From: Octopus vulgaris
Taxonomy: Eukaryota
Reading direction: 5' to 3'
Assembly (NCBI GenBank): GCA_951406725.2
Contig: OX597814.1
Coordinates: 57,970,001 to 58,034,000, forward strand
Length of the DNA stretch: 64,000 bases
Made by a program: the position numbers and the translations under genes. Below the pieces are notes generated by a model. That model was not told where the DNA came from. It saw only the letters and a list, made by a program, of their open reading frames with translations, and ran no database searches. Position 1 is the stretch's first letter; every line of letters begins with the position of its first letter. Shown here one piece after another: positions 5,605 to 46,299 of the stretch.

Positions 5605-6300
5605 TCGTTATTCAGTTTATTTCAAGATTTCTTGCCAATAAAGAGCCGGTTTCTAACCTAGATCGAAGGCTTTTTCATTGGAATCTCAACATCAACAGAG
5701 TATTTTCGCACGTACATACCTGTGTATGTATTTATGTATGTATGTATTATGCATATAGTTGCATATCTAGACATGCAACTATATATTTAAATGATAAAAC
5801 ATTTAAACATATATTTAAATGATAAACTTTTGGAACGTTTTACAGATTTTACAGTTCCAGTGATGGATTGGATCTATAGTCTTCGAAATAGCTTTCTCCT
5901 TTCTGGTTTTGAGAAGCCTAATTTCCCAACATTGGTATTTAAGCAATGTATTACATATCCCAGAGCCCCAATCATTACATGTATAAATCTGAACTTATAA
6001 TCTGGATAGAGTAACTGCAGATTTCTCAATAGTCCAGCATAGGTGTTCTCTTTTTCACTGATCTTCAGCTTCGTGTTAACATCTGCTGGGCAACTAATTT
6101 CCACAAATGTGCACAGTTTATCTTCCCTGTCCCAAATCATTATATCAGGTCTGTTGTGCTTACATTTTATTGAGGTCTTCACTGGGACATTCCACCAGTA
6201 TCTCTTTTTATTATGAGTGGCTATGTCTTCTGCTATACTGTGGTTTCTTATTTCATTGTCCTCGGGATTATCTTTCCGACATATTTCATTATAAAGTGTC
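5605..6300 (-). mobile_element. 5'-truncated RLE-type non-LTR retrotransposon (R4/Dong-like), C-terminal endonuclease plus probable 3' UTR
   Basis: ORF 5874-6182: HNRPDIMIWD...FVEISCP...EKENTY..L...IGALG is the PD-(D/E)xK restriction-like endonuclease motif; the putative 3' UTR (5605-5710) abuts the (TATG)n tract. Confidence 0.8.
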
Positions 6301-6329
6301 CTAACTACAATGGTTAGAGATAAGAGAAC

Positions 6330-6388
6330 TACGCATTGTGACCAGCGATGAGTAGCAACATCTGATGGTCTGGTCGGTCACATGATAT
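6330..6388 (+). mobile_element. 3' fragment of SINE family D
   Basis: 'attgtgaccagcgatgagtagcaacatctgatggtctggtcggtcac' matches 62091-62138. Confidence 0.75.
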
Positions 6389-17165: not shown

Positions 17166-18145
17166 AAGCAAAGAATAAGAGAACGGTTAAAAGGCTATTG
17201 AAAGTGTGAGCTAAAAACTATTGAGAGCGTGTGGATACTTAAGGTTACTGGCTGTAACTGGCTAGGTATTAACACTTTAGCCGTCTCAGTTATAAGTTAC
17301 GGCTACAATATCCTTAACTGGACACTACATGAACTAAGCAAAATAGATAGGAAAACAAGAAAAATAATGACAAGATCTAGGATGCACCACCCAAAATCTG
17401 ACATAGAAAGGCTATATATACAACGTATTGAAGGTGGTAGAGGCCTTATGCAGTTGGAAAACTATTATAAAAAAAAAAACGCCATAGGACTGCAAAAATA
17501 CCTACTTCAGAAGGAGGGAAAACTGATACAAATAGCCACAAAACACGAGCAAAACAAAAAAAAATGTTTTCAGTATTTAAGGAAGCTGACAAATACAAAC
17601 AAGAAGTCATACTACCTAACAAATATGAAGAAGAAGAAGAAACAACAAAAGCTATAAAACAAATGAAATCTAATCTAAAACTAGAACTGCAACGGACCAT
17701 ATTAAAACGATGGCAAGAAGATCCCCTTCATGGCAAATATTGGGCTTAACTAAATGCAAAAGAAATAGACCGAGAAAAACCCCAGCAATGGTTGAGAATC
17801 TCAGGACTCAAATCAGAGACTGAGGGATTTTTAATTGCAGCACAAGACCAAAGCTTCCCCACCAGAAATTACCAAAAACATAATGAAAAGAGACATATCA
17901 AGTAACTGCAGAATATGTGGAGATGGACAAGAAACAATAAATCATATTATCTCTGGCTGCCCAGTCCTGGCTAAGAAAGAATATATTGACAGACACGACA
18001 GGGTTGGTACCTACATAGACTGGAAGCAATGCCAACACTATGGAATAACAACAGAAAAAAAGATGGCAGACGCCAGAAAAGATCGCAGAAAAGGAGAAAA
18101 TAAGCATAATCTGGGATATGCTAATACACACAGATAGAGAAATTC
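17166..18145 (+). mobile_element. R4/Dong-like non-LTR retrotransposon fragment (thumb to CCHC zinc knuckle)
   Basis: INTLAVSVISY...IDRKTRKIMT...HHPKSDIERLY..R.EGGRGL; LHGKY; ETEGFLIAAQDQ; CRICGDGQETINHIISGC...YIDRHD; frameshifted. Confidence 0.9.
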
Positions 18146-20096: not shown

Positions 20097-20416
20097 CATT
20101 CACACACACACAAGTAAATACATTGATAAATAAATAGAAAGAGAAACTAACGGACAGACAGAAAGACAAGCCGACAGAGACAGAGAGACAGATAGATATT
20201 AATAGTGACCTTAACGACCACAGATAGGCAGAAACATATATGCACATAGATATTATGTATGAGTGTATCGTCCTTCTACATTTTCATATCGCTGAACTTC
20301 AAGTTGACCTTAGCTAAAATGCCAAGTAACACCTTTTTGACTTAAAAGGTGTAATCTATAAAGCCTTGAGATTTATCCGAGTTCATGCGGCGGGGAAGTT
20401 AGAGATCGTATACCAC

Positions 20417-20468
<52 letters not shown>

Positions 20469-20491
20469 ATGTATATGCATATATATATATA

Positions 20492-21163
20492 TTTAAATAT
20501 TTGTTGTGCAAGATTTTTTATGTGAAGTCGTGTGTTGAAACAGATATTGTTATATTTCGGAATGGTCATTTTGCTAGTTAACAAATAAAAACACACACGC
20601 ACTATATATTTGGTGTTACTTTGCTTCAGTGTTATTTATTTTTTACGTTAATCTTAATCTTATTTCGGCCAGAGTTCTTTGGTCACATTCCTGTGACCGC
20701 ATCAGTGGTCCTTTGTTTTCTTCTTACTTATTTGTGTCTCTCCTTATTCTGGACGAGACACATTGTTTTATAAAACGAAGCTGTTGTGTTGTCACAGTTT
20801 TCTTTAGGCAACAGAATATAGTGTTCTTCAGCTTCTTGCAAGCCTGGCTATAGCTCACGTTAGTACGTTTAAATATTTGTTGTGCAAGATTTTTATGTGA
20901 AGTCGTGTTTTGAAACTGTGACAACGCAACAGCTTCGTTTTATAAAACAATGTGTCTCATCCAGAATAAGGAGAGAAACAAATAAGTAAGAAGAAAACAA
21001 AGGACCACTGATGCGGTCACAAGAGTGTGACGAAAGAACTCTGGCCGAAATAAGATTAAGATTAATGTAAAAAATAAATAACACTGAAGCAAAGTAACAC
21101 CAAATATATAGTGCGTGTGTGTTTTTTATTGGCTAAACTGGCAAAATGACCATTCCGAAATAT

Positions 21164-21170
<7 letters not shown>
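20492..21170. mobile_element. Non-autonomous PLE-like mini-element: direct repeat A (20492-20541, 20868-20916) and ~257-bp inverted repeat (20544-20800 / 20913-21170), in (TA)n
   Basis: repeats read directly (ORFs 20629+ and 20893- are mirror images); HHR-like motif in each arm. Confidence 0.75.
21005..21044 (+). ncRNA. Hammerhead-ribozyme-like motif (variant core); mirror copy at 20669-20708 minus
   Basis: cca-CTGATGC-g-gtcaca(agag)tgtgac-GAAA-gaac-TC-tgg; A9 is replaced by C. Confidence 0.5.
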
Positions 21171-21224
<54 letters not shown>

Positions 21225-21644
21225 TATGTATATATATATATGAGGTAGAAAATATTTTAGCGGAAAAACACACGTGGTGGATATAAATAGAGAAAGAGAT
21301 AAGGTGAAAATACATAGAAAATTTGATTTCACAGGATTTAAGATTATATCAGACCCATGATAATAAAGATATCATGCAATTTTCTATATGGTATCGTTCT
21401 TTCAGCATAATTGACATATGGACCTGTTTCGCATTGTTCATCAAATTTAGATGTGGAAGAGATAAATTGCTAGGGGTAAAATATTACTGGGGTAAAATAT
21501 TACTGGGGGGAAAATATTTCTAGGGGAAATAATTTTTCACTCATTTATTTTGCAGTAAACGGGAGGTAAATTTTTGTTCTCTGCTTTTATCTAGCTTATA
21601 GTTTCCATTAGATAAGTTAAGCACTTTATTTTTGATATGCTCTC

Positions 21645-21975: not shown

Positions 21976-23054
21976 GTGTTACCACTGTGTAGCAGAACAG
22001 CTTTGATGCTGTCCTTGGATGCATCTATGAAAAGTCGCCAGTTGGGTTTATCATATGGTATTTCAGGGATGTCCTTACAAAATTATAAGTCATCCTTCAT
22101 CGTGAATAATGCAAGCAGATCCTCTATACGTTTTTTGTACAGTATTATCTATACTCCTTTCTCAAGAAGATTACGTTCTTGAAGCCTTGATGCCAAAAAC
22201 TCACTTTTTCTTTGGTTAAATAGAGAACCTTGCACAAATAATTTAGAGCCTCTTGAGAAAATGATACTAGTTTATTCTCGATTTCTGGATCATTGGGCTG
22301 CACACATTCACCACTGGAATGTTCAACAGCACTGCTGGAACTCTGCACTTCTTGATCTGGAAGTTTGGGCGCAGGTAAATTTTCTGAGTGCTCTACTGGG
22401 CGCATTGCTGATTGCAAACTTCGGTAAACAATGTGTTTCTTTTTCTTTGCTGTAGTACAGCCTGTAAAGTCATGGTGACAGAAATAGCAATCATTAGAAT
22501 GATCTTTCCGCTCACGCCAAATCATTGGCACACCAAATTTCATGTGAACATTTTTTCCTACATTCCAGGTACTCAATGTCTTCACACATGTAAGTCAACT
22601 CACGTGAGGCGACCAGAATAAGTCCTGGGCTCCTAAGTAACAATAGAAGTACGCCTTGTATATTTTCTTGACATGGCGGGTAATCCTGCACTTTTCTTTA
22701 GCAGAAGTCAGTTCCCCACAGATATAACAGAATCTGTTTGGATCATTTTGGCACTGTCTTGCACGCATTGTTGAAAACAAATAAGATCTGAAAGATAAAA
22801 AATTAACATTAAACACAAGCTTTGAATCACATTGTAGGTGTTACTAAGATTGGTCTCTAGCAAATGGTTGAAACCCATTTTACAATGCGGTAGAGAAGTG
22901 TATTTAATAATGATAACAAAAAGGGTATTCAGTGACAATTCTGTAGAAACCAAGCCTAATTCAACAAAAAGAAGGCCAGACATGGATTTCTCATGTCATT
23001 TTGCGTATAAAAATGGCCATATATCTCTTGTACTTTTTTGAGTGTTGCACAGTA
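21976..23054 (-). mobile_element. 5' half of a Chapaev3-like (CMC) DNA transposon
   Basis: CQNDPNRFCYICGE...KAYF..LGAQDLFWSPH; FGVPMIWRE.KDHSNDCYFC; WRLFIDASKDSIKAVLLHSGN; putative end 'tactgtgcaac' at 23054; the superfamily name is from recall. Confidence 0.7.
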
Positions 23055-24032: not shown

Positions 24033-24405
24033 TTACGACGCGCGTGTGACGTCTTCGCCGATGTTCACTGATCTGGAGAGTGATCTGCTGAGATACGTGA
24101 ACTCATTAACAACTTTTAAGTTTTCTCCTCTGACTGTGATTGTTGGCTCTACATACTTCTTATGTAGTGCAGATAGTGCATGACCTTTGTCTTCTGAGTA
24201 CTGATTTTGAGGCCAATGTTGTTCCAGGCATTGGAAACATTGTTCATGCTGTATCTGTGCCTCTGTGGCGGAGTTGAATGTACAGTCGTCTGCGAACAGG
24301 AAGTCGTATAATGAGTCCTCTTCCACTTTGGTCTTGCCCTGTAGTCTTCGCAGGGCTAAGAATCTGTCATCTATCCTGAACCTGATTTTTACTTTGGTTG
24401 CGTCG
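24033..24405 (-). pseudogene. RTE/BovB-like LINE RT fragment
   Basis: LRRLQGKTKV...DFLFADDC...PTITVRGENLKVVNEFTYLS. Confidence 0.85.
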
Positions 24406-26284
24406 GAATGCATGTATATGCACACAAATATATGCTGAAAATGCGCACACACGCACACAGACACACACACATACACACACTCTCGGATACACAAGCACAC
24501 ACGCTCGCATACACAAGCACACACATATACGCAGACACATACAGACATACACGCACACAATAGAAACACACACACATATACAGCAATCTATTTACATCGC
24601 TACATTTCCACAGTATCATACATGAACTTAGAAATGTTAAACAATACATTTGAATAACTTATATTTCCATCGATGTGATGCAAACGTGAAATCGTCTGGT
24701 GCTAAAGTCAAATGTAGTGAGTTTATGACGAGGGCCAGACATTTAGAGAAAGATATTTTAGTTTAAGTCTTTTGTCAAGCCCTTTAGGCAAAATAAGAGG
24801 TTTATATCTTTCAGTACCAGACTGACACATGTCAAAAGGTTTTATTTTAGATGAAACCTGTATGTGAGTATATACGGAAACGCAACACATTTTATTCTGC
24901 GCAATTGTCTCATTAATTAGTGTAGTCAATAAAACTATTGTTTAATTGCGCTGGTTCTTTCTGTTGTTACCTCACGTTTCAAGCTTATATACATTTATTC
25001 CTGCGTTAAAGTACGCCCATGAGTGAGAAACTCTAGTTGTGTCGAAGTAAATAATCAATTTGAAGCACAGAGAGACACATAGAGATACATACACACATTA
25101 CACACAAAAATATACTTATAGATACATGATGTAAGATACATGTACTTAACGCTAGATCTTTTTAGTTATAAGTAGATATCGTGCTTACATCTGAGAATCC
25201 CCAGATGCGTATTGAAATTTACTCATTCTCATTGAGTTCTAAGTGCAAAGAGTAGGCATTTGTTCATTATATTCAATAAACTTTCGACATGTCATGCTAT
25301 AAATGATTTACATATAATCTGGAAATTTGGAATTATTACAAAATTAAAGGCTTCACAGTGTTAATGCATTTAACATTTGCATGTCAATAGCGATATCCTT
25401 TCACTAGCTACTCGTGGAAAATATATGAAGATTAGTATTGAATTCCCATCTCACAGAGTAGCTAAAATTTGTTTTTTATAACTACCTGGAATTGCTTTCT
25501 AAATAACTTAAAACCAATTCAACAGATATATTTCCTAATATGCACGAGGCGGCTCATGCAAGAAATAGAACGTCAAATTTAAACTGATTCGTTCAATGAT
25601 ATAATTTAAATTGATTTGTTCAATGATATAATTGAACAAAGAGATAACATTCAATCATTTATAAATATGATCGTCACAGTGTATCATGATTAATTGATTT
25701 CTTGTCTAAAAATATATATTTATTTCACAATGTATCAACTATGCATTTCACACACCTTAGGGTTTCTTATTACTACTATGTAGTAGGTTTAACAAAGACA
25801 TATGGAAATCATAATATTTAAGTGAAACATACAATTGTTAAAAAACGAAAAATGCAAAACACAATACACTCAATTGGCTTTATTTTCTTGTTCCATTAAT
25901 TAATCTCATGCGATCAGGCATTTCATATATGTGCAAGGAAGCTCTGTTAATCATTTTATATACTAACAGTTTTATATTCAATTTTATATATCAATCTCTC
26001 TTTTGTTGAGGAATGCCATGTTTGAAACTATTTTTTATTGAGATATGTCAAGTTTAGTGAGGCAACATGATTTACAGAAAATGCCAATTATATTTTTTGA
26101 TAGATATTTTACATCATCCCTGGAATAATCATGAAATGTAATTTCGCAGTGAAAGTGTTAAACCAAATTAATGGGAGTTATAACGGAGGAAAAAGGGATT
26201 CAACTGTAGTAGGATCATTTATATCATTCGTAACCTTAACAGCTCTGGTGGGTATGGAATGAATAATTTTGGAGAATAAAGTTT

Positions 26285-27660
26285 ATATGTTTATCTTTCT
26301 AATGCTATATCTAGATAATGACATCGCCTAAAGCTGTAATATATTAATAATATCGCTAAGCATCAGTCTGCTGACAATGCAATTTCACAAAATTCAGTCA
26401 TCAGTAGATTCTCGTCTAACATTAAATTAGAGTTTCTTGGGCAATTGCTCATCGTGTTCATCATCTTCACTATGTCTGCTATCATTAATCAGAACTTCTT
26501 TCGGTATTTCTTCTTCTGTTAACACTTGATAATCAAAATCACTCATTGTGTCTTCTTGTCAGCTGCTGACGGCAATATGCGTGACATTTGTTTCACCTAT
26601 CCGCCATAATATGCAAGACAAATACCTGAATTCACGTAATTCAATATCATATTCCCGATGCACAGAAGATGCATTTCAAGGTTTGTCTAAATTGGCTATC
26701 TTCAATGCCGTGCATAAAGATGAGAAACTGAATATTGCTGGCTTAAAATTTTTGTTCTTGATGTAATTGTGAGATATGCTTTATCTTCTTGTATCTGGCG
26801 TCATATCGTTATCGTCTGTCATCATGAGCTCCTAATTCCTTCGTTTGTACACTCTGTTCTAACATATAGTTTTAATATCAGCTTTTGGCTTGATCGTCGA
26901 AGTATCACTTGTGGCAAGAACATTCGTATCAACAATTATTATTAACGTGCTTTCTATATTACTAACGGTGCTACCCTGTTGTCTTACGATAATTACTTAC
27001 GTGTTGGAGAAGTAATTTTGTTGGCTAAGTTTACTCATACCTTCACCTCACCAAGAGAAAGTTTTAGTATATTTCATGGCTATTTACACACAGACAAAAT
27101 GAATTTTAGGAAAATAAATATCATTAAAGATACGCTTCTTTAACCACGAATTCTTGAAATGCTAAAAATGTACAGGTAGCAGTTATATTATGGATTTCAA
27201 GTCAAGTGATCCTATCAGGCTCCCTACAATCACTGGCTTTAAAATTAATTCTATCAGCGCTCGCGTTACACCAGGCATAAAAAAAACAAACGTTTCTTCT
27301 GGAATGTTTCTTCAGACACGATGGCTTCATTCTTATGTCTGGGTATTACGGGGTAGTGACAAACAATACAACTTAGCTTCATTTTCATTTTCACTAACGA
27401 AAATTGGATGAACTTTACGCTTCATCAAGTCTTCAAGAACACTTCAGTTAACCTAGGATCGTACGCAGTCTGCTATGAGATAGTAAATTTTTATTACATA
27501 TTCCATGCTCATCTGTAAGTCTCCATAACTCTATCTTATACACTTCGCAGTTTTTGAAACTCAAATGCTTAGCTAGTTTAGATGAAGCCACCTCAACATT
27601 TGTATAATTTGCAACACACATGTGACAACTTACACCTATAACTGATGACTTAGAATTCAC
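26285..27660 (-). pseudogene. Old pogo/Tigger (jerky-like) transposase fossil
   Basis: collinear degenerate motifs: KLAKHL...LWRLTDEHGICNK (CENP-B HTH), ENEAKLYCLSLP (ADETGLFW..LP), LKPVIVG, LPVHF..KNSW, MFLP..TS.IKP, acidic DYQVLTEEEI...SEDDEHDE. Confidence 0.65.
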
Positions 27661-43259: not shown

Positions 43260-43762
43260 TTTTTTCTCTAGTTTCAACTCAGAGCTGCGGCCATGCTGAT
43301 GCACCACCGTTTTGTGCTACACTGTTATTGCGAAGAACCTCGTCTAATATGTGGCACTTGGTGAAGAATGGAGTTTGATATAGCTACTCTCATTTGCACC
43401 TCTTGCCGTGAGGTAGGTTTATCTGGGACTCTCGACAGGAAGATGTCCAGCTTTGATTTAAAAACCGCTACATCTACTTTGTGAAAGTTTCTCAGACACT
43501 TTGGGAGAATATTAAAAATCTGTGGGCTCTTGAGATCCATGCTGTTGCTGAAGCTGGTCCTGAAGCGTGATGGCATTGCTGGGATCTTTGGCACTATGCA
43601 GTGTCGTCCCGTTCTAGCATTGGTGCAGCTTACAATGCCAAAATTTGGCACAATTCCTTCCAGGATCTTCCAGACATATATTACTGCATACCTCTCTCGT
43701 CTTCTCTCCATGGAGTAGTCTTAGCTGTTTCAACCTTTCCCAGTAGCTGAGCTGTTGCAAAG
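43260..43762 (-). mobile_element. CR1/L2-group LINE 3' end with 3' UTR
   Basis: [35 protein letters not shown]...QIFNILPKCLRN...FKSKLDIFLSRVPDKP, followed by the tail 'ggtggtgcatcagcatggccgcagctctgagttgaaact'. Confidence 0.88.
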
Positions 43763-45480: not shown

Positions 45481-46299
45481 CATAGTAGGTATCGTAACCC
45501 CATACAGGTAGAGTAGAATAGTTAGTGGGCTGTTATGTATGTATATGTATGTGTGTGTGTGTGAGCGTTTGTATATATATGTATATGCATATGTATGTAA
45601 GCATATGGATATGAAAGTAAACAGATCAACATACAGACGGATAGGTACATAGGTTATATGAACAAACAAGCACACATACGAACACATTCACAAATTAAGA
45701 CTGAAACACATGACCATACACACACACACTTTACTTCACACAAGGACACATATGGAGATATACGTCCACAGATATGGAGATACACATCCATATATACAAC
45801 ATGGTACATAGTTACAATCACACACAAACGCATATATACACACAGAGAGTCAGACATGCACATACAAGGAAACAGAAGTACACATTTACATGCACACAAA
45901 AACACACACAGACAGGCAAACACATGGGTTTGCAGAATATATACAGACAAATGTACAAACATACATATATAAATAAATGCACACACACACACGTATGCAT
46001 ACATACATACATGCATGCATGCATATGCTCACGCACACACTAAGACACAGACATGCGCAAAAGCCAACAGAAAGGAAAGAAGTGTGAATAAAGGACAGAG
46101 TAAAACCTATTGAAATGGTTGTAAGAAGCAACGAAAACTTTAGAGTAATAAAGAAGGATATCAGCGGAAATTTTACCCGTGTGTGTATTAAATTGTAAGG
46201 CACTAAAATAGAGTAACTCTCCCCAGACACAACGGTAAATACTTCAACACAAGAACTCACATAAAGACTCTTGTAAACCAAGTCAAAAAACGAACTACA

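What the first reader, a model, noticed from the sequence alone, without database searches (positions are those of the whole stretch)
20492..21170. A-B-C-A-B(inverted) mini-element whose 376-nt monomer is circularly permuted and restores a 73-aa ORF across the junction
Seen: a ~50-bp direct repeat with a period of ~376 nt, plus a ~257-bp inverted copy starting at a 'gaaac' microhomology, all inside (TA)n. On the minus strand, the ORF broken at the left end (MTIPKYNNICFNTRLHIKNLAQQIFK) continues in frame through repeat A into RTNVSYSQACKKLKNTIFCCLKKTVTTQQLRFIKQCVSSRIRRDTNK*. The unit therefore reads as HHR, short UTR, 73-aa ORF, HHR again. Inference: QLRFIKQC resembles the L.FL..C motif of PLE N-termini, so this looks like a PLE reduced to ribozyme plus N-terminal peptide. 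It may have been copied from a tandem or circular RNA with a 5' inversion, which would make it a retrozyme-like non-autonomous family.
Basis: partly seen in the sequence, partly recalled or inferred. Interest (0 to 1): 0.8.

Follow-up and report, generated by a model that had tools for sequence, protein, structure and literature searches.

The report
Shrunken Penelope copy with flipped half
This 680-base insertion in a TA repeat is likely a rare, internally deleted copy of a very abundant Penelope-type jumping gene, pasted with its front half flipped, and not an abundant self-cutting RNA circle; both halves share one deletion joint, which would help test how such flips arise.

Summary
The repeats are real: a 50-nt direct repeat 376 nt apart, a 257-nt inverted arm (96% alike), (TA)n on both sides. 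[quoted passage not shown] Contigs of three sequencing runs show the ribozyme/tail part 230-800 times deeper than ORF codons 27-67, with a break at 20745/46 that none of 24 listed pieces crosses. So the 376-nt unit is not an abundant monomer. The 73-aa ORF is 67 codons of a PLE-type N-terminus plus six read-through codons, intact only as a virtual join. The two hammerheads face opposite ways, so this locus cannot release a circle. No reverse-transcriptase-bearing parent was found; no circular RNA was shown. Non-autonomous PLE derivatives and PLE-derived retrozymes are in print, and this scan noted a similar case in another genome (e1-7814458). Small oddity: core position 9 is mostly C, and U in a distant relative at 46.1 kb.

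The parts
20420..20491 (.). (TA)n/(TATG)n target, left
   Evidence: TRF 20420-20500
20492..20543 (-). Tail: ORF nt +27 to +78, present at this end only (repeat A = 20492-20541)
   Evidence: Offsets; TA-rich loose ends at 20492 (37 and 16 contigs) and 20544 (30 and 18 contigs) in two runs; P0002 homology ends at the same codon 26
20544..20569 (-). Start of ORF, ATG at 20569 to +26 (tail-less end of the family)
20570..20668 (-). 5' UTR part of the pLTR; local private changes at 20575-20588
20669..20708 (-). Minimal type I hammerhead-like motif, sense arm; position 9 = C, G12 changed to C (private); predicted cut after 20672
   Evidence: family keeps G12 in 96-99% of depth at 20681
20709..20746 (-). 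Upstream remainder of the pLTR; supplies the last six codons and stop (20726-20724) of the 73-aa reading
20745..20746 (-). Deletion joint, 2-nt TA overlap, after ORF codon 67
   Evidence: Depth step and piece ends; P0001 homology stops at 20745
20745..20916 (-). ORF codons 10-67 (includes A' 20868-20916 with a one-base loss, and segment C)
20913..20916 (.). Inversion joint, AAAC microhomology shared by A' and the inverted arm
20913..21171 (+). Inverted arm: ORF codons about 50-67, the same deletion joint (20967-20968), pLTR, ATG at 21146, ends at +23 to +26 without tail
21005..21044 (+). Minimal hammerhead-like motif, inverted arm; position 9 = C, G12 intact
21168..21241 (.). (TA)n target, right
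   Evidence: TRF

Best explanation
The insertion is likely a rare, internally deleted derivative of an abundant Penelope-like retroelement family, likely copied in trans by the parent's reverse transcriptase and endonuclease into a (TA)n tract, with its inverted arm likely made by twin priming on an RNA that held the deleted 376-nt unit at least 1.8 times. Steps. (1) Shown: the family ends at two sites inside its own ORF, +26 and +78, next to TA-rich letters; the 52 nt between them are the tail and make repeat A. (2) Shown: this copy joins ORF codon 67 to the pLTR at a TA overlap, in both arms; family contigs break there. Inferred: an RT-endonuclease body of 2-3 kb is missing. (3) Inferred: a source locus held the short unit in (partial) tandem and was transcribed. 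(4) Inferred: both strands of the TA tract were nicked; one primed at +78 of the 3' unit and ran 426 nt back to +29, the other primed at +26 of the upstream unit and ran 259 nt back; the two cDNAs were joined at AAAC. (5) Shown: the arms have since diverged by about 4%; inferred age of a few million years. Ribozyme cleavage or a circle is not needed. The copy is likely dead.
For: Architecture matches published PLE insertions: direct plus inverted pLTR, pLTR holding the first codons, tail on one end, a derivative with a microhomology deletion (PMC3846280; PMC8557442). In vitro a PLE protein nicks and extends both strands of AT-rich DNA and starts RT at two sites inside its ORF that bound the tail; ribozyme cutting is not required (PMC11167929). 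Two family-wide TA-flanked ends, at 20492 and 20544. Depth step at 20746: about 1.5 million vs 2,000 (X3), 200,000 vs 260 (X4), 10,000 vs 43 (X14); 10 of 24 listed pieces stop at 20742-20750 with their records running on, 0 of 24 cross; in X14 three non-crossing records make up all 42.8 of the ORF-side depth. P0001 homology ends at the same base. Arm ends abut with a 2-6 nt gap (+26; +29 to +33): about 2% by chance in a 376-nt period (my arithmetic), and the known mark of twin priming (mechanism as summarised in PMC9148063; the adjacency rule is recalled). Hammerhead fold: 10 of 10 pairs kept in 3 copies, 4 by changes on both sides against the relative at 46107-46143.
Against: No RT- or GIY-YIG-bearing relative was found (0 loci), so PLE identity rests on architecture. 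No tandem source locus was seen; no genome is held. The raw-read run gave 0 reads, so depths are summed contig depths, which the tool says are no copy number; only 24 of 9,381 pieces were listed, longest first, and a single-locus joint contig would be short. Two of the three informative runs are labelled as other organisms than the best holder, and none holds more than 0.65 of the words. Fold-back copying explains the shared joint without a tandem RNA. Hints that the true large joint lies 26-30 nt further on (rival 2). The structure was drawn from these same three sequences.
Confidence: 0.5

Rival explanations
1. One-off event: RT on a full-length PLE RNA jumped at the TA overlap from the 3' pLTR to codon 67, stopped at +29, folded back (AAAC on GTTT at 20797-20800, 112-nt loop) and copied its own cDNA; the endonuclease resolved the product at the tail-less site. 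No short source element ever existed.
For: Explains the joint in both arms and its absence from all listed family pieces. The fold-back geometry is in the sequence. Self-priming was proposed for PLE inverted junctions (PMC3846280).
Against: Leaves the +26/+29 adjacency to chance (about 2%) or to an assumed protein roadblock; needs the copy to stop at +26 instead of +78; in vitro data show priming from both strands at two sites.
Confidence: 0.25
2. A low-copy mini-element of about 400-406 nt exists in the family (ORF side running straight into the start of the solo pLTR), and this locus lost a further 26-30 nt; 20745/46 is then only a small secondary deletion.
For: The main ORF-side contig of X4 (depth 183 of about 260) overhangs 20745 by 27 letters, what a 31-letter-word unitig would do if it merged there with TA-flanked solo copies (my reasoning); the last 5 of 30 loose letters in X3 equal the next 5 letters of the ORF side; P0001 has Y-x-M-A after the aligned part and the family's loose letters give Y-x-M-A in one frame.
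Against: In X14 the contig of the same haplotype runs on for 280 letters with no pLTR piece listed; four other ORF-side records run on 46-91 letters; no joint with letters between is listed there. X3 and X4 disagree on those last 5 letters, which rest on few contigs. The X3 form does not fit the piece ends at 20745.
Confidence: 0.17
3. One reading: an established retrozyme-like family of 376-nt monomers that cycles through ribozyme-cut circular RNA and encodes a 73-aa peptide.
For: Monomer size is in the 150-450 bp range of animal retrozymes; these are proposed to derive from PLE pLTRs; a template with the joint twice is likely; the family is present in putative RNA runs; 9-22% of family depth has the canonical A9.
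Against: 1.13 direct units only, one hammerhead per strand; tail-to-ORF continuation is under 0.5% of tail depth and the joint at most about 0.1% (0 in X14); minimal, non-canonical core; the last six codons are pLTR read-through and homology stops before them.
Confidence: 0.05
4. Assembly artefact or chance repeats in low-complexity DNA.
For: Microsatellite-rich setting; no indexed run holds all words (best 0.65).
Against: The arms differ at 12 places, and at 7 of the 10 substitutions the inverted arm carries the letter seen in the family, as expected from decay after insertion; E-values 1e-17 and lower; both outer ends match family-wide ends.
Confidence: 0.03

Closest known systems
Endonuclease-bearing Penelope-like elements with direct plus inverted pLTRs and tail (Pen2/Pen2a of Adineta vaga, PMC3846280; scheme in PMC8557442 Fig. 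2)
   Same: pLTR holds the first codons; tail on one end; head-to-head inverted arm; microhomology deletion derivative; AT-rich target
   Different: Tail is 52 nt, not 30-40; the sense arm has no 5' pLTR; the inverted arm reaches past the pLTR through the deletion joint; RT and endonuclease not seen
Poseidon of Anolis carolinensis (PAc), PMC11167929
   Same: Two ends inside the ORF that bound the tail; AT-rich target; hammerhead near the start codon
   Different: Ends lie at +26/+78, not about +111 to +150; the hammerhead lies about 100 nt upstream of the ATG instead of overlapping it; clade untested
Minimal hammerheads of metazoan PLEs (PMC4209133)
   Same: Short stem I, 6-bp stem II, extra base between 9 and 10.1, G10.1-C11.1 pair, almost no stem III; pairs on opposite strands 100-700 bp apart; most copies solo; U3-A8 swap in the relative at 46.1 kb
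   Different: Position 9 is C (U in the relative) where all 23 tabulated PLE rows shown have A; loop 3 is not palindromic
Animal non-LTR retrozymes (PMC7229834; bioRxiv 10.64898/2026.07.22.740005)
   Same: Size, PLE pLTR origin, likely mobilisation in trans
   Different: No two consecutive direct units with a full hammerhead; minimal non-canonical core; rare; keeps 67 ORF codons; no circular RNA shown
Non-autonomous Chlamys PLEs such as MRC1 (PMC8557442)
   Same: Short PLE derivatives with pLTR and head-to-tail copies
   Different: Those are established, active families in green algae; this is a rare, decayed animal copy

Membership tests
Penelope-like elements (EN+) | Single ORF with telomerase-like RT and GIY-YIG endonuclease | tested here: inconclusive
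   Absent from this copy; no long homologue found; ORF-side contigs run on with unseen letters. Filed as a derivative by architecture only.
Penelope-like elements (EN+) | Terminal redundancy: pLTR that includes the first codons of the ORF | tested here: met
   Ends at +26 and +78 of the ORF; same end in P0002 and in the relative at 46.2 kb
Penelope-like elements (EN+) | Tail on one end only | tested here: met
   52 nt, left end only; both ends seen family-wide
Penelope-like elements (EN+) | Inverted 5'-truncated copy joined head to head | tested here: met
   20913-21171
Penelope-like elements (EN+) | Minimal type I hammerhead in the pLTR | tested here: inconclusive
   Fold and covariation fit, but position 9 departs from the core and Rfam has no hit; cleavage untested
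Penelope-like elements (EN+) | AT-rich or microsatellite target; target-site duplication | tested here: inconclusive
   (TA)n on both sides; a duplication cannot be read inside TA
Hydra or Naiad clade | N-terminal R-W-K motif after R-M (Hydra); N-terminal GIY-YIG (Naiad) | tested here: not met
   The four Hydra N-termini seen differ; 0 hits for 2 peptide and 2 DNA motifs in that supplement (long lines are cut and wrapped, so the search is imperfect)
Neptune or Penelope/Poseidon clade | RT phylogeny and linker zinc finger | not testable with these tools
   No RT in hand
Non-LTR retrozymes | At least two consecutive direct units, each with a complete hammerhead | tested here: not met
   1.13 units, one hammerhead per strand; no period-376 array by TRF
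Non-LTR retrozymes | Canonical type I hammerhead | tested here: not met
   Minimal form, C9 in both arms, G12 lost in the sense arm
Non-LTR retrozymes | Monomer of 150-450 bp | tested here: met
   376 nt
Non-LTR retrozymes | Many copies sharing the monomer | tested here: not met
   Joint-bearing form at most about 0.1% of ribozyme-side depth; 0 of 24 listed pieces cross; a handful of copies is not excluded
Non-LTR retrozymes | Expressed as monomeric circular RNA | tested here: inconclusive
   One putative RNA run, contigs only: no contig crosses the joint; poly(A) or size selection could hide circles

The most novel reading that the evidence does not exclude
The locus is a fossil of retrozyme birth: a PLE shrank to a 376-406 nt unit that existed as tandem or circular RNA, formed a small non-autonomous family that still carries the N-terminal ORF, and was inserted by twin priming at the two PLE start sites; and this octopus-type PLE lineage uses a hammerhead with a pyrimidine at core position 9 that still cleaves (C in most of a very abundant family, U with a U3-A8 swap in a distant one).
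Probability: 0.2. Interest if true: 0.6.

Novelty: new member of a known kind. Interest (0 to 1): 0.3.

Why it matters
As it stands it is one more decayed PLE derivative. Its use is as a marked template: because both arms carry the same deletion joint and the arm ends abut, one genome search can tell twin priming on a tandem RNA from fold-back self-priming, a point the PLE papers read here leave open. It also shows a link in the proposed path from PLE to retrozyme outside vertebrates, and points to a very abundant solo-pLTR family whose hammerhead departs from the core at position 9, which motif searches that demand A9 would miss.

Tried and rejected
Rfam: 0 matches in the window at gathering score; 24 weak matches in 20400-21300, all miRNA-like hairpins or TA repeats, rejected. 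Canonical hammerhead pattern: 1 match at 27292, chance level 0.57. Pfam: 0 families for the 55-aa piece and P0001. Protein searches: 0 of 4 candidates, 2 of 66, 0; 1 representative; ESM Atlas best score 0.87, unnamed, not used. Collections: 290 pattern matches, 0 confirmed in metagenomes; 0 DNA matches in metagenome, genome and viral contigs. Raw-read run X21: 0 reads laid, no test. R-W-K in P0001 as a Hydra mark: rejected, the context differs. A stable stem-loop at the RT start sites: not found (z -0.2 and +0.6). Folding energy alone does not single out the hammerheads (z -0.8 to -2.5). A hammerhead back-translated from P0001 was considered and dropped as unverifiable. Papers: 'twin priming' + 'Penelope' + 'inversion' gave 3 papers, none on this by title; 'octopus' + 'hammerhead ribozyme' gave 5, 4 listed, none on this family by title; 'A9C' search gave 0. 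The 2017 paper on PLE hammerhead variants (PMC5785218) is not held and may already describe position-9 variants. Earlier-finding look-ups by place and sequence were empty.

Full report
Observation. Repeat A (20492-20541) and A' (20868-20916) agree in 48 of 50 columns, 376 nt apart; A' has one substitution and has lost one T. The inverted arm 20913-21171 matches 20544-20800 with 247 identities, 10 substitutions and 2 one-base gaps. The overlap at the inversion is AAAC, four bases. (TA)n arrays flank both ends. The sense strand is minus: ATG at 20569, 26 codons to the left end; codons 19-73 are read contiguously at 20891-20727. Because of the lost T, the 73-aa reading exists only as a virtual join. 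The join is still correct: P0001, the only hit among 1.84 billion representatives (E 8.7e-5), aligns collinearly with both pieces, residues 5-34 with 20587-20498 and 28-77 with 20894-20745.

Ribozyme. Rfam finds no hammerhead. By hand there is a minimal type I shape in each arm (20669-20708 minus; 21005-21044 plus): 3-bp stem I, CUGA-U-G, then C at position 9, one extra base, a 6-bp stem II, GAAA, almost no stem III. A descriptor found these 2 and nothing in 30 shuffled windows. A second descriptor that allows the U3-A8 swap described in PMC4209133 but demands GAAA found the inverted-arm motif and one more, at 46107-46143, inside a distant relative, and nothing in 200 shuffles. Across the three copies all 10 pairs hold, 4 of them by changes on both sides, including the 3-8 pair (three sequences only, and the structure was drawn from them). 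In the family G12 is intact in 96-99% of depth, so its loss in the sense arm is private; position 9 is A in 9-22% and C in the rest. The relative has U there. All 23 tabulated PLE hammerhead rows shown have A9, but that table came from a descriptor that favours it. Activity is untested.

The family. No genome is held. Twenty of 24 listed runs, under four coded organism labels plus one small-share metagenome, hold part of the stretch; the best share is 0.65. I laid 4 runs on 20486-20926. The raw-read run gave 0 reads. The three contig runs (433, 6,240 and 2,644 records laid) agree. Summed depth over 20591-20725 is about 10,000, 1.5 million and 200,000; over 20756-20860 it is 43, about 2,000 and about 260: a step of roughly 230-800 fold. 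The tool warns that these are no copy numbers, so I use them only as a coarse ratio. Beyond 20746 the abundant form goes on with other letters (34, 12 and 2 contigs). Of 24 listed pieces (9,357 more not shown), 10 stop at 20742-20750 while their records run on, and none crosses. In X14, three non-crossing records account for all 42.8 of the ORF-side depth; in X4, listed non-crossing records account for 206 of 257; in X3 the whole ORF-side depth is 0.1% of the ribozyme side. TA-rich loose ends pile up at 20492 (37, 16 contigs) and 20544 (30, 18): the family ends at +78 and +26 of its ORF. P0002, an Octopus bimaculoides gene model, matches codons 1-26 at 85% and then turns unrelated, the same +78 end; this also makes an octopus the likely host (inference).

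What it is. These features are the published PLE pattern: a pLTR holding the first codons, an optional tail, an inverted pLTR at the 5' side, and derivatives with microhomology deletions (PMC3846280; PMC8557442); hammerhead pairs on opposite strands 100-700 bp apart and a mass of solo motifs (PMC4209133). In vitro, a PLE protein nicks and extends both strands of AT-rich DNA, starts at two sites inside its ORF that bound the tail, and needs no ribozyme cut (PMC11167929). So repeat A is the tail, and the 'permutation' is PLE terminal redundancy. The 376-nt period comes from a joint at 20745/46 (TA overlap) between codon 67 and the pLTR; P0001 homology stops at the same base, and the last six codons are pLTR read-through. 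I found no RT-bearing parent, so the identity rests on architecture, and the clade is open: not Hydra or Naiad by the sequences seen; Neptune-like is a guess from the microsatellite target.

How it likely arose. Two facts need explaining. Both arms carry the joint (20745-46 and 20967-68), so it predates the inversion. And the outer end of the inverted arm (+26) abuts the inner end of the sense arm (+29 to +33), a coincidence of about 2%. Twin priming on one RNA with at least 1.8 short units gives both: one target strand primes at +78 and stops where the other has primed, at +26 of the upstream unit; the cDNAs join at AAAC. A partial tandem source is ordinary for PLEs, so no circle is required. 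The rival is fold-back copying of a single cDNA that had jumped during synthesis. I put these at 0.5 and 0.25. A third reading (0.17) is that a low-copy 400-406 nt unit exists and this locus lost 26-30 nt more; three weak hints favour it and one contig that runs on for 280 letters speaks against it. The arms differ by 3.9%; at 7 of 10 substitutions the inverted arm has the letter seen in the family, which fits decay after a single insertion. With the clock quoted in PMC13282606 (0.09 = 25 million years) that is about 5 million years, if the host is an octopus.

Against a retrozyme. The working definition asks for two consecutive units with complete hammerheads; here there are 1.13 units and one hammerhead per strand, so a transcript of this locus cannot be cut to a monomer. 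The monomer is rare in the DNA runs and absent from the one putative RNA run. Circles remain untested, since contigs cannot show them.

Novelty. PLE-derived retrozymes, non-autonomous PLEs and deleted copies with inverted pLTRs are in print. I did not find this family or a twin-priming account of PLE inversions; subscription papers and repeat libraries were not searched, and the repeat library of PMC13282606 was not in the one supplement held. Verdict: new member of a known kind, interest 0.3.

Papers seen: bioRxiv 10.64898/2026.07.22.740005, parts 1-3 of 5, supplements not seen; PMC11167929 and PMC4209133, parts 1-2 of 4 each; PMC8557442, passages, section 11, supplement searches and supplement part 1 of 59; PMC3846280, PMC7229834, PMC6765202, PMC9148063, passages; PMC13282606, passages and one supplement search; PMC5785218, title only, in a reference list. 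Recalled, not from a call: the L.FL..C motif of PLE N-termini, hammerhead numbering, the adjacency rule of twin priming, how unitigs break, and the labels of other repeats in the window.

Noticed in passing
window 46058-46299 (+): Solo pLTR-like copy of a distant relative (70% over 60 nt of the ORF start and tail; alignment score 125.5 vs at most 89.5 in 200 shuffles), between microsatellites, ending near the same tail site. Its hammerhead-like motif (46107-46143) has the U3-A8 swap and U at position 9.
   Followed up: partly
window 20492-20746, family level: The tail-plus-pLTR part is 230-800 times deeper than the ORF body in three runs and is present in putative RNA runs: likely a very abundant, SINE-like solo-pLTR family; most of it has C at hammerhead position 9.
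   Followed up: partly
P0002 (UniRef A0A0L8I3J7): An Octopus bimaculoides gene model takes its first 26 codons from this PLE end and then continues with unrelated sequence: probably a mis-annotation, or a captured first exon.
   Followed up: no
window 20486-20926, table 5: Eight single-contig joints in X3 and X4, e.g. skip 20545-20811 and back-jump 20841-20525, suggest other rare rearranged copies with different joints.
   Followed up: no
window 5874-6377, 17202-17657, 24033-24587, 43325-43720, 22145-22594: Open frames that look like LINE remnants and (22145-22594) a DNA-transposon remnant by recall; for 5 of them Pfam gave nothing above its cut-offs.
   Followed up: no
window 21473-21529: Three and a half copies of a 16-nt unit just right of the element; no link seen.
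   Followed up: no
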